From: Candidatus Acidiferrum sp. | Lineage (GTDB): Bacteria; Methylomirabilota; Methylomirabilia; Rokubacteriales; CSP1-6 | DNA: 64,000 bases | Direction of reading: 5' to 3' | Assembly: GCA_035635775.1 (NCBI GenBank) | Contig: DASQAL010000254.1 | Span: 13,035 to 77,034, forward strand | Shown: piece by piece, positions 50,642 to 54,747 of the stretch | Position numbering within the stretch: the first letter of the stretch is position 1 | Layout: each line of letters begins with the position of its first letter | The notes under the pieces: generated by a model | The model's database searches: none | The model's input: only the letters and a program-made list of their open reading frames with translations | What the model was told of the DNA's origin: nothing | Translations under genes and position numbers: made by a program

Positions 50642-51709
50642 TTAGGCTAGCGCGAGTCGCGGCTCGGCGGTCACCTCGCCGATCTCCCACACCGGCTCGC
50701 GCGCGCTCGCGAAGGCCTCGCGCACCGCGTCGGCCCTCGCCGGGTCCACCGCGAAGAGCAGGCCGCCCGAGGTCTCCGACTCACAGAGCAGGTTGACCAT
50801 CGCGTCCGGCACCGCCGGGTCGATGCGGAGCCGCCCGAAGACCTCTTCGAGGTAGCGGCGGTTTCGCCCCATGCCGCCGCTCCAGCCCCCCAGATCGGCC
50901 AGCGCCCGCGCGCCTGGTAAGAGCGGCAGGTCCTGGCTTCGAATGGTCAGGCCCGCCCCCGAGGCCGCCACCATCTCGCTGGCGTGGCCGAGGAGCCCGA
51001 ACCCGGTGATGTCGGTGGCGCCGGTCGCCCCCGCCTCCTGCGCCACCCGGGCCGCCACGCGGTTGAGCCGGAGCATGCTCTGCACCGCGCCGTCGAGGAC
51101 CGCGGGCTCGCACTTGTCGTTCTTGGCCGCGGTGGCGATCACCCCGGTGCCGAGGGGCTTGGACAGGAACACGCGCTGACCCGCGCGGAGTCCGCCCTTG
51201 ATCAGGATGCGCCGCGGGTCGACCCGGCCGGTCACGCAGAGGCCGTACTTCGGCTCCGCGTCCACGACGGTGTGGCCGCCCGCGATGACGCCGCCCGCCT
51301 CGTGCACCTTGTCAGCGCCGCCCCGGAAGACGGCCGCGATGATGTCCTTGGGCAGCTCGCGCGGGAAGCCCGCCACGTTGAGCGCGAACAGCACCTGCCC
51401 GCCCATCGCGTACACGTCGGACATCGAGTTCGCGGCCGCGATCGCCCCGAAGAGATAGGGGTCGTCGACGATGGGCGGGAAGAAGTCGACCGTCTCCACG
51501 ATGGCCACGTCATCGGTCACGCGGTAGACGGCGGCGTCGTCGCTCCGGCCGAGCCCCACCAGCAGATCGGGGTGCTCCTCGCGGCGCAGATCCCCGAGCA
51601 CGGCCTGGAGATCTCCAGGACCCATCTTGGACGCTCACCCCGCGCAGGCGGCGTAGGCGGTGAGCCGGATCTCCTTGCCGGTCTTGGGATCGATCAGCTT
51701 CGGGTCCAT
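50642..51709 (-). CDS. selD: selenide, water dikinase (selenophosphate synthetase), selenocysteine-containing form (in-frame TGA at 51635-51637)
   Basis: Listed ORF starts MGPGDLQAVL... (SelD core: DAAV, AIR-synthase-like fold) but the reverse strand continues upstream in frame: ATG(51709) MDPKLIDPKTGKEIRLTAYAACAG-TGA-ASKMGPGDL..., aligning Sec with the catalytic Cys17 of E. coli SelD (TQYSHGAGCGCK); perfect palindrome CCTGGAGATCTCCAGG 15 nt 3' of the TGA. Confidence 0.8.
51600..51622 (-). promoter_or_regulatory. putative bSECIS hairpin for selD UGA
   Basis: CCUGGAGAUCUCCAGG (6-bp stem, 4-nt loop, extendable) beginning 15 nt downstream of the in-frame UGA. Confidence 0.5.
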
Positions 51710-51740: not shown

Positions 51741-52634
51741 TCAGACGGCCTCGGCCTCGACGAAGGCGCGGAAAGCCTCCGCGAGGGGCGAGCGGCTGCG
51801 CTCCCGGTGGGTGGCGAGGTAGAAGGCCCGGGCGATCTTGAGATCCTTCACCCGGAGACACCAGACGCTGCCCGCCCGGCACTCGTCCTCGACGGCCCGC
51901 CGCGACACGAGCGACACGCCGACGCCCGCCTTCACCGCCTGCTTGATCGCCTGGGTCGAGCCCATCTCGCCGACCACGCGGAAGGCGGCGATGTCGCTGC
52001 CCGCCTGGGTGAGCGCGGCCTCGAGGGCCGCCCGCGTGCCCGACCCGCGCTCGCGGAGCAGGAGCGGCTCGGCGCGCAGCTCCTCCATCGTCACGTGCTT
52101 GCGCCCGTGCCAGGGATGCGCCGCGCTCACGATGAGGACGATGTCGTCGGGGAACAGCTCGCGGAACTCGATGCCCCGGTGACCCGATCGCGCCCCGACC
52201 ACGCCCACCTCGGCGCGGCCCTCGGCCACCCACTCCGTCACCGCCTGGCTGCCCCCGATGAGCAAGGTGATCGCGATATCGGGGAACTTCTCCTTGAAGC
52301 GGCCGATCAGGGCGGGGAGGATGTACTCACCGGGAATCGTGCTGGCACCCACGAGCAGCTCGCCGCTCATCCGCCCCTGGAAGCTCTCCATCGCCTGCCG
52401 CGCCTCGCGGGACAGGGCAAGGAGGCGCTGCGCGTAGCCCTGCAGCAGGGCGCCGCCCTTGGTGACGGCGGCCCCGCGGCCGAGGCGATCGAGCAGGCGC
52501 ACGCCCAGCTCGTCCTCGAGGCTGCGGATGTGCTCCGAGACGGTCGGCTGCGTCAGGAACAGCGCGTCGGCGGCCTTGGAAAACGAGCCGAGCTCGGCGA
52601 CCTTGACGAAAATCTCGAGCTGGCGTAGATCCAC
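51741..52634 (-). CDS. LysR-family transcriptional regulator
   Basis: N-terminal HTH (LRQLEIFVKVAELGSFSKAADALFLTQPTVSEHIRSLEDELG) and LysR substrate-binding domain. Confidence 0.9.
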   Translation of the reverse strand: MDLRQLEIFVKVAELGSFSKAADALFLTQPTVSEHIRSLEDELGVRLLDRLGRGAAVTKGGALLQGYAQRLLALSREARQAMESFQGRMSGELLVGASTIPGEYILPALIGRFKEKFPDIAITLLIGGSQAVTEWVAEGRAEVGVVGARSGHRGIEFRELFPDDIVLIVSAAHPWHGRKHVTMEELRAEPLLLRERGSGTRAALEAALTQAGSDIAAFRVVGEMGSTQAIKQAVKAGVGVSLVSRRAVEDECRAGSVWCLRVKDLKIARAFYLATHRERSRSPLAEAFRAFVEAEAV

Positions 52635-52742
52635 GGGCCCGAGTATAGAAGCGCCCCGGGGCCGTGTAAAGCCGAGGCCCGCGGCAGAGACACGAAAGGG
52701 GCCCGGAGGCCCCTCGTCGGACGCGGCGGCGCTACCGCTGGC

Positions 52743-52958
52743 TCAGCGGCAGCCGCACCCGCCCCCGCAACAGCCGCCTCCGCCCGTGGGCGCCGACGAG
52801 GCATCGCTCATGCGCCCGCCGGTCTTCACCCCCACGACGGAGAGCCGCCGGCTCACGCGCTCGCTCTCGCACGAGACGCACACCACCGCCGACGGGCGCT
52901 GCACGAACTTCTCGAACTCGGCCCCGCAGGCCAAGCACGCGTATTCATAGATGGGCAT
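52743..52958 (-). CDS. FmdB-family zinc-ribbon protein with Gly/Cys-rich C-terminal tail
   Basis: MPIYEYACLACGAEFE ... CVSCES (CxxC...CxxC) then GGGGCCGGGCGCR tail. Confidence 0.7.
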   Translation of the reverse strand: MPIYEYACLACGAEFEKFVQRPSAVVCVSCESERVSRRLSVVGVKTGGRMSDASSAPTGGGGCCGGGCGCR

Positions 52959-52994: not shown

Positions 52995-53198
52995 TTACTG
53001 TCCGCCGCGCTGGACGTAGCTCTTCACGAACTCCTCGGCGTTCTCCTCAAGGATGTCGTCGATCTCGTCGAGGAGGCTGTCCAGCTCCTCCTTGATCTTC
53101 TTGCCCTTCTTGGAGAGCTCGGCACTACCCGCGCCGCCGTCGTCACCACCCTCGGCAGGCTTGGTCGGCCTCGTTTCCTTCTTCTTCTGCTCAGCCAT
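52995..53198 (-). CDS. pup: prokaryotic ubiquitin-like protein Pup (GGQ C-terminus)
   Basis: 67 aa, disordered acidic N-half and C-terminal LDEIDDILEENAEEFVKSYVQRGGQ, matching the Pup signature (Mtb: LDEIDDVLEENAEDFVRAYVQKGGQ). Confidence 0.8.
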   Translation of the reverse strand: MAEQKKKETRPTKPAEGGDDGGAGSAELSKKGKKIKEELDSLLDEIDDILEENAEEFVKSYVQRGGQ

Positions 53199-53243
53199 GG
53201 GACGTCACCTCCTGGCCCCGGTCCGCGGAGCCGGCGTCAGGGC

Positions 53244-53795
53244 CTAGACCGTCGGCAGCACGATCCCCTGCTGGCCCTGATACTTCCCCTGCCGGTCAGC
53301 ATATGACGTCTCGCAGGCCTCGTCCGATTCAAAGAAAAGGACCTGCGCGATGCCCTCATTGGCGTAGATCTTCGCCGGGAGCGGCGTGGTGTTGCTGATC
53401 TCGAGCGTCACGTACCCCTCCCACTCCGGCTCGAACGGCGTCACGTTCGTGATGACGCCGCACCGCGCGTAGGTCGACTTCCCTACGCAGATCGTCAGCA
53501 CGTTGCGCGGGATCTTGAAGTACTCCACCGAGCGTCCCAGCGCGAACGAGTTGGGCGGGATCACCGCGACCTCGCCCTGATAGTCGACGAAAGACCGCGG
53601 GTCGAAGCTCTTCGGATCCACGATCGTGGTGTTGATATTGGTGAAGATCTTGAACTCATCCGCGATGCGGATGTCGTACCCGTAGGAGGAGAGGCCGTAG
53701 GAGATCCCGCCCTTGCGCACCTGACGGTCTTCGAAGGGCTTGATCATGCCCTTCTCCACGGCCATGCGCCGGATCCAGCGGTCGCTCTTGATCAC
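53244..53795 (-). CDS. dcd: dCTP deaminase
   Basis: dUTPase-like fold motifs ([25 protein letters not shown]). Confidence 0.88.
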
Positions 53796-53838
53796 ACGTG
53801 CACCTTGTACCGATCGTACTGCCTGCTCCGAGTGGGAG

Positions 53839-54747
53839 TCAAGTCTCGGGCAGTCGTTCCCACGTCGCGCCCTCCGCGTCCACCGGGAGACTGAGCGCCC
53901 GGCCCCCGATCCCGGCCTCCCGCAGCGCGCGCTCCATCGCGCGCGCCACGTCGTCGCCGCGGCCGCGCACCGCCGCGAGCATGGACGGACCCGCCCCGCT
54001 CAGGACGCAACCGAGTGCGCCCGCCCGCCGCCCCGCGGCGGCCACCGCCTCCATCCACGGGAAGAGCCGCTGGCGATAGGGCTGGTGGAGCCGGTCCTGC
54101 ATGGCGAGGTCGAGCAGGTCCGGGCGTCCGGCCCCGAGCGCGGCCAGCAGCAGGCTCACCCGCTGCACGTTGAAGACCGCGTCGGCCCGCGGGACCGAGT
54201 CCGGAAGCACCGCCCGGGCCTCCCGCGTGGAGCTCTCGGTCTCGGGCAGCAGCACCACCCAGGCGATCTCGCGCGGCACCGGCAGGCTCACCGCGGTGAC
54301 GCGCGCCCCGTCGGCGCAGGATACGGTGAGCCCGCCCAGCACCGCAGCGGCCACGTTGTCCGGATGGCCCTCGGCCCGGGCCGCCGCGGTGACGAGCGCG
54401 TCGCGATCGAGCGGCTCGCCCAGCAGCGCGTTGGCCGCGAGCAGGCCGCCGACCCAGGCCGCCGCGCTCGAGCCCAGGCCGCGGTTCAGCGGGATGCGGT
54501 TGACGCAGCGAAGGCGCCCGCCGCGGAAGGGCCGGCCCGCCACCTCGAAGCCCAGGGTGACGCCGCGGGCGACCACGTTCGTCGCGTCCCCGTCGAGCCG
54601 GCCCGCGCCCTCGCCCTCCACGCTGACGGAGACTTCGTCCGCCTCCTCGAGGATCACCTCGTTGTGGAGCCCCAGCGCCAGGCCCAGCGCGTCGAAGCCC
54701 GGCCCGAGGTTGGCGGAGGTGGCGGGCACGCGAACCCGGACGCGCAT
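53839..54747 (-). CDS. thrB: homoserine kinase
   Basis: GHMP kinase motifs [12 protein letters not shown] and [15 protein letters not shown]; start at MRVRVRV inside listed ORF. Confidence 0.88.

What the first reader, a model, noticed from the sequence alone, without database searches (positions are those of the whole stretch)
52995..53198. Orphan pup gene (Pup-GGQ) with no Dop, PafA, ARC/Mpa or proteasome genes within 10 kb each side
The 67-aa product has the diagnostic Pup C-terminus (LDEIDDILEENAEEFVKSYVQRGGQ) and a disordered N-half. In Actinobacteria pup sits in the dop-pup-prcBA-pafA locus. Here it lies between dcd and an FmdB zinc-ribbon gene, with thrB and lysR/selD nearby. A GGQ terminus requires Dop deamidation, so the ligation machinery must be encoded elsewhere, or this Pup has a different partner. 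The FmdB-like neighbour with a Gly/Cys-rich tail could be a co-transcribed partner.
Basis: partly seen in the sequence, partly recalled or inferred. Interest (0 to 1): 0.6.

Follow-up and report, generated by a model that had tools for sequence, protein, structure and literature searches.

The report
Unlinked Pup gene paired with zinc-ribbon gene
This is a genuine bacterial ubiquitin-like tag gene (Pup) that, across a whole soil lineage (Rokubacteria), sits away from its usual enzyme genes and is always followed by a small zinc-ribbon gene; this is unusual gene placement for a known system, not a new system.

Summary
The 67-aa ORF at 52995-53198 (-) is a bona fide Pup (Pfam 76 bits against a cutoff of 27; TIGR03687 67 against 41; E 4e-14 to M. 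tuberculosis Pup in solved complexes).

No PafA, Dop, ARC or 20S gene occurs anywhere in the 64-kb window. None occurs in 97 related Pup loci (888 kb) either, while an actinobacterial control locus scores strongly.

The arrangement is fixed across the lineage, whose closest named MAG is Candidatus Rokubacteria:
- dcd lies directly upstream in 80/81 loci.
- thrB lies further upstream in 43/43.
- An FmdB-type zinc-ribbon gene starts 0-38 nt after the pup stop in 95/95.

The C-terminal half is under strong purifying selection. The last residue is only E (66 loci) or Q (31 loci), which points to canonical gamma-glutamyl conjugation and a deamidase.

I could not locate this lineage's PafA/Dop. The tools gave no way to query a Rokubacteria genome, so "enzymes encoded elsewhere" remains an inference (about 0.7). 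A 2008 survey stated that Pup is invariably adjacent to a PafA gene; this lineage is an exception. The invariant pup-fmdB pairing did not turn up in my literature searches, and its meaning is unknown.

Interest is moderate: a new variant of a known kind.

The parts
52995..53198 (-). pup: 67-aa prokaryotic ubiquitin-like protein, Pup-GGQ form (end coordinate includes the stop codon)
   Evidence: PF05639 76 bits, TIGR03687 67 bits. E 4e-14 to Mtb Pup in PDB 7PX9/3M9D. Purifying selection across 97 loci.
53205..53212 (-). Shine-Dalgarno AGGAGGTG, 6 nt upstream of the pup ATG
   Evidence: Read directly from the sequence.
52743..52958 (-). FmdB-family zinc-ribbon gene (71 aa) with a Gly/Cys-rich tail ...GGGGCCGGGCGCR; starts 36 nt after the pup stop
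   Evidence: PF09723 47.8 bits, TIGR02605 45.5 bits. Present directly after pup in 95/95 related loci, gap 0-38 nt, conserved tail GGCCGGGC[GAS]C[HR].
53244..53795 (-). dcd, dCTP deaminase (183 aa); ends 45 nt upstream of pup
   Evidence: TIGR02274 159 bits. dcd lies directly upstream of pup in 80/81 loci with flank: 18 of the 183-aa type, 62 of a 387-aa DCD_N type.
53839..54747 (-). thrB-type GHMP kinase (the 302-aa gene as called in public assemblies), first gene of the conserved block
   Evidence: GHMP_kinases_N/C. Upstream of pup in 43/43 loci with more than 3.5 kb of flank.
53813..53842 (-). sigma-70-like promoter match just upstream of dcd (TTGACT-18-TACGAT); possible start of a dcd-pup-fmdB transcript
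   Evidence: Consensus scan only: 2 sites found against 0.2 expected from shuffles. Not evidence of function.
51741..52634 (-). LysR-family regulator downstream of fmdB, with its own promoter-like site at 52642-52670; variable member of the block (absent in L272-L274)
50642..51625 (-). SelD/AIR-synthase-related gene, usual last member of the syntenic block
   Evidence: AIRS + AIRS_C; synteny.

Best explanation
The ORF encodes a functional, canonical Pup. In this soil lineage (order-level Rokubacteria within Methylomirabilota) the pup gene has been separated from the pupylation enzyme genes. It is fixed in a thrB-dcd-pup-fmdB block, probably transcribed with dcd and translationally coupled to the downstream FmdB-type zinc-ribbon gene.

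Shown: family membership, expression signals, purifying selection, the fixed gene order, and the absence of enzyme genes nearby.

Inferred: Pup-GGQ is deamidated to Pup-GGE by a Dop-type enzyme and ligated through the gamma-carboxylate of its C-terminal Glu to substrate lysines by a PafA-type ligase, both encoded elsewhere in the genome. Whether tagged proteins go to an ARC/20S proteasome or pupylation is proteasome-independent (as I recall for corynebacteria) is unknown. The role of FmdB is unknown; it may be only an operon passenger.
For: Family membership is well above curated cutoffs.

Residues 15-67 align to M. tuberculosis Pup from the Mpa-proteasome, Mpa, Dop and PafA complexes. The LLDEIDD(I/V)LEENAE(E/D)FV..YVQ.GGQ stretch is almost identical.

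Within the lineage, 69 DNA versions of the last 35 codons encode only 9 proteins. Codons 17-34 never change amino acid, although 16 of the 18 positions use 2-5 synonymous codons.

The terminal residue is E in 66 loci and Q in 31, never anything else, and both forms occur on otherwise identical backgrounds. This fits a C-terminal Glu used for conjugation plus a deamidase that makes Gln tolerable.

A strong SD sequence precedes the ATG.

Hecht et al. 2020 (PMC7947786) report Dop and/or PafA homologs in draft genomes of candidate division NC10, which belongs to the phylum (Methylomirabilota) in which Rokubacteria are now placed (PMC8780371 abstract).

Stand-alone Pup_ligase genes with no pup, ARC or proteasome gene nearby do occur in uncultured soil lineages, so dispersed pupylation genes are not unprecedented.
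Against: I never found a PafA, Dop, ARC or 20S gene that can be assigned to this lineage. There is none in the 64-kb window and none in 888 kb around 97 related pup genes. The candidate environmental ligases I chased turned out to be other or unassignable organisms. This is absence of access rather than evidence of absence, because no tool could search a Rokubacteria genome. Iyer et al. 2008 (PMC2588565) found Pup 'invariably' adjacent to a PafA gene in every lineage then known, so an unlinked pup is atypical.
Confidence: 0.7

Rival explanations
1. Pup and the FmdB-type zinc-ribbon protein form a functional two-gene module. FmdB would be an accessory, regulator, chaperone or preferred target of Pup within an otherwise canonical pupylation pathway. 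This is compatible with the best explanation but adds a new component.
For: fmdB follows pup in 95/95 loci with a gap of 0-38 nt (mode 3 nt), which is spacing typical of translational coupling. The pairing persists while other neighbours change: dcd is swapped between a 183-aa and a 387-aa type, an MFS gene is inserted, and lysR is lost. The Gly/Cys-rich tail is conserved. None of 52 actinobacterial control loci has an FmdB-type gene after pup.
Against: All the evidence comes from one order-level lineage in which the whole thrB-dcd-pup-fmdB block is inherited together, so shared ancestry alone can explain the adjacency. The FmdB family has no established function; I found no relevant literature. 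No physical or co-evolutionary link was tested.
Confidence: 0.25
2. The lineage lacks PafA/Dop altogether. This Pup would then work without canonical pupylation, for example as a non-covalent intrinsically disordered binding partner, or conjugated by an unrelated enzyme.
For: No enzyme gene was found near any of 97 pup genes or in the window. The enzymes were not located by any search I could run.
Against: Strict conservation of exactly the residues that contact PafA/Dop and Mpa in solved complexes. A terminal residue restricted to Q or E after an invariant GG is hard to explain without gamma-glutamyl conjugation chemistry. GGQ forms, about one third of loci, would be useless for conjugation without a deamidase. 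Dop/PafA homologs are reported in candidate division NC10 of the same phylum (PMC7947786, PMC8780371).
Confidence: 0.1
3. The ORF is a decaying relic, a recent horizontal insertion or a gene-calling artefact.
For: It lies outside the canonical locus and is very short.
Against: It has a strong SD sequence, sits at the same position in 97 loci from many unrelated samples, has many synonymous substitutions and almost no amino-acid substitutions in its C-terminal half, and has no mobile-element genes flanking it.
Confidence: 0.02

Closest known systems
Actinobacterial Pup (for example M. tuberculosis Rv2111c) in the dop-pup-prcB-prcA ... pafA locus
   Same: Same protein family. Same length class. 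Disordered Gly/Asp-rich N-terminal half. Near-identical C-terminal PafA/Dop/Mpa-binding segment. GGQ terminus with GGE variants among relatives.
   Different: Gene context. In the actinobacterial control loci Pup was found in 52/53, and in the example L230 it sits directly after dop and before prcB. Here it sits between dcd and an FmdB zinc-ribbon gene, with no enzyme, ARC or proteasome gene in 888 kb of related loci. The host is a Gram-negative-type uncultured soil phylum rather than Actinobacteria.
Sporadic non-actinobacterial pupylation systems (Nitrospirae, Verrucomicrobia, Planctomycetes, Plesiocystis; NC10 for the enzymes)
   Same: Pup family members outside Actinobacteria, presumed to have been acquired horizontally (PMC2588565, PMC7947786).
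   Different: [quoted passage not shown] Here it is unlinked in every locus examined.
UBact (ubiquitin bacterial) of Gram-negative phyla
   Same: A small Pup-like tag in non-actinobacterial phyla, associated with PafA/Dop-like and proteasome genes (from my own knowledge of Lehmann et al. 2017; not read here).
   Different: The window protein scores as canonical Pup (PF05639/TIGR03687) and ends in GGQ. It shows none of the divergence I associate with UBact-type tags. A divergent Pup-like tag of another kind (ending ...QPIGE) was seen only in the unrelated locus L091.
Eukaryotic ubiquitin genes fused to zinc-binding ribosomal proteins (Ub-S27a, Ub-L40)
   Same: A protein-tag gene is expressed together with a small zinc-binding protein gene. 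This is an analogy only, from general knowledge.
   Different: Here they are two separate ORFs with a stop codon between them. Only 50 of the 76 ATG-initiated pairs are in frame, so a conserved fusion or read-through product is unlikely. The fused database entries P0068 and P0110 look like gene-calling artefacts.

Membership tests
Pup (PF05639 / TIGR03687) | Scores above the curated HMM cutoffs | tested here: met
   PF05639 76.2 bits (cutoff 27); TIGR03687 67 bits (cutoff 41.45).
Pup (PF05639 / TIGR03687) | C-terminal G-[EQ] signature (GGQ/GGE) at the very end of a 50-90 residue protein | tested here: met
   Ends ...VQRGGQ and is 67 aa. In 97 relatives the last residue is E (66 loci) or Q (31 loci) only. 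The criterion is as stated in PMC2588565.
Pup (PF05639 / TIGR03687) | Conserved C-terminal helical segment that binds PafA/Dop and Mpa | tested here: met
   Sequence-level only. Residues 40-67 align almost identically to the Pup peptides in 7OXY (Dop), 4BJR (PafA) and 3M9D/7PX9 (Mpa). They are invariant within the lineage. Binding itself was not tested.
Pup (PF05639 / TIGR03687) | PafA-type ligase (and Dop-type deamidase for GGQ forms) present in the same genome | not testable with these tools
   No tool could search a genome of this lineage. The indirect routes failed or hit other organisms.
Pup (PF05639 / TIGR03687) | Covalent attachment to substrate lysines | not testable with these tools
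   Requires proteomics or biochemistry.
Canonical Pup-proteasome gene locus (dop-pup-prcBA, pafA nearby) | pup adjacent to a PafA/Dop-family gene ('invariably', PMC2588565) | tested here: not met
   0/97 loci and 0 in the 64-kb window by tblastn and Pfam. The control locus is positive: Dop 1045 bits, ARC 1178, PrcB 503.
Canonical Pup-proteasome gene locus (dop-pup-prcBA, pafA nearby) | 20S proteasome subunit and ARC/Mpa genes in the neighbourhood | tested here: not met
   Same searches. The only AAA+ gene nearby is a MoxR (AAA_3) in a MoxR-DUF58-BatA/VWA cluster.
FmdB zinc-ribbon family (PF09723 / TIGR02605), for the downstream gene | N-terminal CxxC...CxxC zinc ribbon scoring above the curated cutoffs | tested here: met
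   PF09723 47.8 bits (cutoff 34.4); TIGR02605 45.5 bits (cutoff 31.3). MPIYEYxCxxC...CxxC is conserved in 95/95 loci.
UBact | Divergent Pup-like tag that does not match canonical Pup models well, with a different C-terminal motif (recalled from memory) | not tested
   No UBact model was available. The strong canonical Pup HMM scores and the GGQ end make UBact membership unnecessary as an explanation.

The most novel reading that the evidence does not exclude
In Rokubacteriales, Pup and the FmdB-type zinc-ribbon protein are an obligate, translationally coupled pair. FmdB would be a previously unrecognised component of pupylation, such as an adaptor, regulator or dedicated partner. In the extreme version, the lineage has no PafA/Dop at all and uses Pup through different chemistry or non-covalently.
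Probability: 0.2. Interest if true: 0.75.

Novelty: new variant of a known kind. Interest (0 to 1): 0.4.

Why it matters
Pupylation is the only known bacterial counterpart of ubiquitin-proteasome tagging, and it has been studied almost entirely in Actinobacteria, where gene linkage guided the discovery of every component. This lineage is abundant in soil. Here the tag gene is fully uncoupled from the enzymes and is fixed next to a nucleotide-metabolism gene and an uncharacterised zinc-ribbon gene.

That has three consequences:
- It shows that the 'Pup is always next to PafA' rule is not universal, so neighbourhood-based surveys will under-count or misjudge such systems.
- It offers a natural case for asking how pup expression is coordinated with enzymes encoded elsewhere.
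- It nominates the FmdB-family protein, a widespread family with no established function that I could find, as a candidate to test for a link to protein tagging.

If the enzymes prove to be absent, it would point to a Pup function independent of PafA/Dop.

Tried and rejected
1. Mixed Nitrospira/Actinobacteria PafA profile against the 5.8-billion-protein database. The 120 listed hits were nearly all Actinobacteria plus a few Nitrospira-type sequences.

2. Exhaustive profile search of the 50%-identity representatives (7,537 hits, 150 listed). This library carries no names, and canonical PafAs from other phyla are probably absorbed into actinobacterial clusters.

3. P0267, a stand-alone PafA-like gene in the Nitrospira clade, was used as bait for the single genome-collection scan. 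It returned only Kribbella Dop at about 40% identity, so its lineage is not among the species-representative genomes and is not Rokubacteria. The scan was wasted.

4. L091 (ARC + two ligases + E1/E2/JAB) looked compositionally like the window (tetranucleotide r = 0.87). A control then showed Kribbella loci reach 0.67-0.86, so composition cannot separate high-GC phyla. L091's proteins are all singletons from a rare organism, and the locus has its own divergent tag.

5. Other GC-rich representatives (P0297, P0343, P0421, P0276, P0260, P0283) have uninformative or actinobacterial-looking contexts and no assembly overlap with the Pup contigs. The WNE*/WNF*/WNG* accessions have contig numbers running up to 611151, so they appear to be bulk metagenome assemblies rather than MAGs.

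6. Multiplexed query of concatenated catalytic cores. The 4,451-aa version timed out. The 1,024-aa version resolved only a Chloroflexi Dop-like family.

7. Structure route. The first PafA model was poor (pLDDT 55). The second was good (pLDDT 93), but the AlphaFold DB libraries are not installed.

8. Literature. No paper combines Rokubacteria with pupylation, and the six that combine it with 'proteasome' have unrelated titles. The one Rokubacteria supplement held as text (PMC5712423) has no hits, and none is held for PMC8780371.

9. The idea of a conserved Pup-FmdB read-through fusion was rejected because the two ORFs are not consistently in frame.

10. P0137, the top profile hit, is only an Acidimicrobiia-like PafA with an internal assembly duplication.

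Full report
**The observation**

AGGAGGTG lies 6 nt upstream of the start codon. The product scores 76.2 bits on Pfam PF05639 (gathering cutoff 27) and 67 bits on NCBIfam TIGR03687 (cutoff 41.45). Against solved structures its best matches are M. tuberculosis Pup in the Mpa-proteasome complex (7PX9, E 4e-14) and with Mpa (3M9D), Dop (7OXY) and PafA (4BJR). The segment LLDEIDDILEENAEEFVKSYVQRGGQ is almost identical to LLDEIDDVLEENAEDFVRAYVQKGGQ. The family call is secure.

**Surroundings**

On the same strand the order is: thrB-type GHMP kinase (53839-54747), dcd (53244-53795; TIGR02274, 159 bits), pup, an FmdB-family zinc-ribbon gene (52743-52958; PF09723, TIGR02605), a LysR regulator, and a SelD/AIRS-type gene.

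Pfam scans of the large ORFs across all 64 kb found only housekeeping and unrelated genes. These include rpsB, uppS, dxr, malic enzyme, rpoD-type sigma factor, acyl-CoA dehydrogenase, biotin carboxylase, DinB-type polymerase, two class-V aminotransferases, DnaK, a TPR protein, a MoxR-DUF58-BatA/VWA cluster, a 2-oxoacid dehydrogenase complex, a PMT_2 glycosyltransferase and an HhH-GPD repair protein.

tblastn with Kribbella ARC, Dop and PrcB, five PafAs from three phyla and six environmental ligase-family proteins gave no hit in the window at E<=0.01. The stated absence therefore holds for 53 kb on one side and 10.8 kb on the other. Rfam found no RNA family in the window.

**Who carries it**

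The identical protein is indexed in 210 blocks of public assemblies, mostly soil metagenomes. There are 733 related 90%-identity clusters. The closest relatives with organism names are labelled Candidatus Rokubacteria / Rokuibacteriota. One of them (84% identical, GGE form) lies on a 228-kb contig of GCA_016184365.1 with the same synteny.

NCBI third-party annotation labels for proteins identical to the window's dcd and FmdB say Dormibacteraeota or Eisenbacteria. I regard these as inconsistent labelling of one lineage. Rokubacteria are now treated as the order Rokubacteriales within Methylomirabilota (PMC8780371 abstract).

**How general the arrangement is**

I assembled 97 loci of this Pup family, 888 kb in total, of which 23 are at least 15 kb long. 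They came from exact-protein look-ups and one metagenome scan.

- dcd ends 43-187 nt upstream of pup in 80 of 81 loci with enough flank. It is either the 183-aa type (18 loci) or a 387-aa DCD_N-containing type (62 loci).
- thrB lies further upstream in 43 of 43.
- An FmdB-type zinc ribbon (M/V-P-x-Y-E-Y-x-C-x-x-C ... GGCCGGGC[GAS]C[HR]) starts 0-38 nt after the pup stop in 95 of 95 loci with downstream sequence. The commonest gap is 3 nt.
- No locus has any tblastn hit to ARC, Dop, PrcB, PafA or the environmental ligases, even at E<=1e-3. The Kribbella control locus gives 1178, 1045 and 503 bits for ARC, Dop and PrcB.
- In the actinobacterial controls, pup was detected in 52/53 loci. In the example L230 it follows dop and precedes prcB. 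None of the 52 has an FmdB-type gene after pup.
- The single exception to the dcd rule is a 1.8-kb contig (L345).

**Is the gene functional, and in what way**

Sixty-nine DNA versions of the last 35 codons encode only nine proteins. Codons 17-34 never change amino acid, although 16 of the 18 positions use two to five synonymous codons.

The one freely varying position in the C-terminal half is the last residue: E in 66 loci and Q in 31, with both forms on otherwise identical backgrounds. Among the 120 closest clusters the split is 55/55. As I recall, Actinobacteria show the same mixture of GGQ and GGE Pups. It is what one expects if the terminal residue acts as Glu in gamma-glutamyl-lysine ligation and a Dop-type deamidase makes Gln acceptable.

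Together with the near-identity to the M. tuberculosis residues seen bound to PafA, Dop and Mpa, this argues that canonical partner enzymes exist. That is inference, not demonstration.

**The enzymes**

I could not find them, and I could not properly look. No tool lists or searches the genes of a chosen genome.

- A phylogenetically mixed PafA profile returned nearly all Actinobacteria plus a few Nitrospira-type sequences.
- The exhaustive search of 50%-identity representatives showed a large family (3,162 representatives below 1e-30), but that library has no names.
- I characterised the top 150 by composition, motifs and a tree and followed the most plausible non-actinobacterial ones.
- P0267 has no close relative among species-representative genomes.
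- L091 is from a rare organism and has its own divergent tag.
- The others were uninformative.
- A multiplexed core query resolved only a Chloroflexi Dop-like family.
- A control showed that tetranucleotide similarity cannot separate high-GC phyla, so composition-based assignment was abandoned.
- A good PafA model (pLDDT 93) could not be searched against the AlphaFold database because that library is not installed.

Published context: Hecht et al. 2020 detected Dop and/or PafA homologs 'very sporadically' in draft genomes of candidate division NC10, among other phyla (PMC7947786). No paper in the library combines Rokubacteria with pupylation, and the six that combine it with 'proteasome' have unrelated titles.

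**Comparison with what is known**

The protein is an ordinary Pup. What differs is the genomic organisation. [quoted passage not shown] This lineage is a clear, fixed exception.

The second difference is the invariant pairing with an FmdB-family zinc-ribbon gene whose function I could not find described. Because all the evidence comes from one lineage in which the whole block is inherited, the pairing may be historical rather than functional. The translational-coupling spacing, and its persistence while dcd type, an MFS insertion and lysR vary, make it worth testing.

A conserved read-through fusion is unlikely. Only 50 of the 76 ATG-initiated pairs are in frame, and the two fused database entries read the stop codon as Gln.

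**Verdict**

The best explanation (0.7) is a canonical Pup whose gene has been relocated and fixed in a thrB-dcd-pup-fmdB block, acting with PafA/Dop encoded elsewhere. The alternatives are a functional Pup-FmdB module (0.25, not exclusive of the best explanation), a PafA/Dop-independent role (0.1), and relic or artefact (0.02).

Novelty is a new variant of a known kind, and interest is moderate (0.4). It would rise sharply if a direct genome search showed that the enzymes are absent.

Noticed in passing
L091:8052-20909 (ENA ERZ27247709 k141_1097351, 137 kb) and L092 (JGI 3300032069): An unrelated rare organism has a striking cluster: ARC-type AAA ATPase, a Dop-like Pup_ligase (P0360), a 77-aa divergent Pup-like tag ending ...FEQPIGE, a Pup_ligase fused to HEAT repeats (P0353), Prok-RING, ThiF/E1, UQ_con/E2, a YukD ubiquitin-like protein, JAB and CHAT. 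A pupylation-like module therefore sits beside a bacterial E1/E2/JAB ubiquitin-like module.
   Followed up: partly
L270:3847-4035 (IMGVR_UViG_3300009514_000463, 6.5 kb): A phage structural module (terminase, portal, scaffold-like protein, major capsid) carries a 62-aa Pup homolog between portal and scaffold. It ends ...NAEEFVKSYVQKGGE, almost identical to the window's C-terminus.
   Followed up: partly
P0068 and P0110: Two database proteins are Pup-FmdB fusions in which the pup stop codon is read as Gln (...VQRGGE-QS-MPIYEY...). These are probably gene calls made under an alternative genetic code rather than real fusions.
   Followed up: partly
window:53244-53795 compared with L011:8753-9916 and L271:8703-9839: The gene slot directly upstream of pup is always a dCTP deaminase, but of two different types: a 183-aa form (18 loci, including the window) and a 387-aa DCD_N/DCD_C form (62 loci). 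Some loci have an MFS transporter inserted between thrB and dcd.
   Followed up: partly
L087-L090, L094, L095, L355: Several environmental PafA- or Dop-like genes (P0267/P0407, P0297, P0343, P0260) stand alone, with no pup, ARC or proteasome gene in up to 10 kb of flank. Dispersed pupylation genes may be common in uncultured soil bacteria.
   Followed up: partly
one search hit list (P0541, P0468, P0479, P0464 and others): The Chloroflexi-type Dop-like family includes entries whose precomputed domains combine Pup_ligase with Pup (PF05639), with the proteasome family (PF00227) or with AAA. One is a 1,534-aa protein (P0541) combining Pup_ligase with LRR, Roc/Arf-type GTPase and YukD domains. Some of these may be gene-call fusions of adjacent genes.
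   Followed up: no
window:52743-53795 proteins: Proteins identical or more than 90% identical to the window's dcd and FmdB are labelled Candidatus Dormibacteraeota or Candidatus Eisenbacteria in NCBI third-party MAG records. Syntenic relatives are labelled Candidatus Rokubacteria / Rokuibacteriota. The taxonomic labels for this lineage are inconsistent.
   Followed up: partly
window:41047-49603: A MoxR AAA+ (AAA_3) gene, a 494-aa protein with no family call, DUF58 and a 1,465-aa BatA/VWA/GATase1-like protein lie 3-12 kb downstream of pup. The cluster recurs at about the same distance in all long related loci. I saw no evident link to Pup.
   Followed up: no
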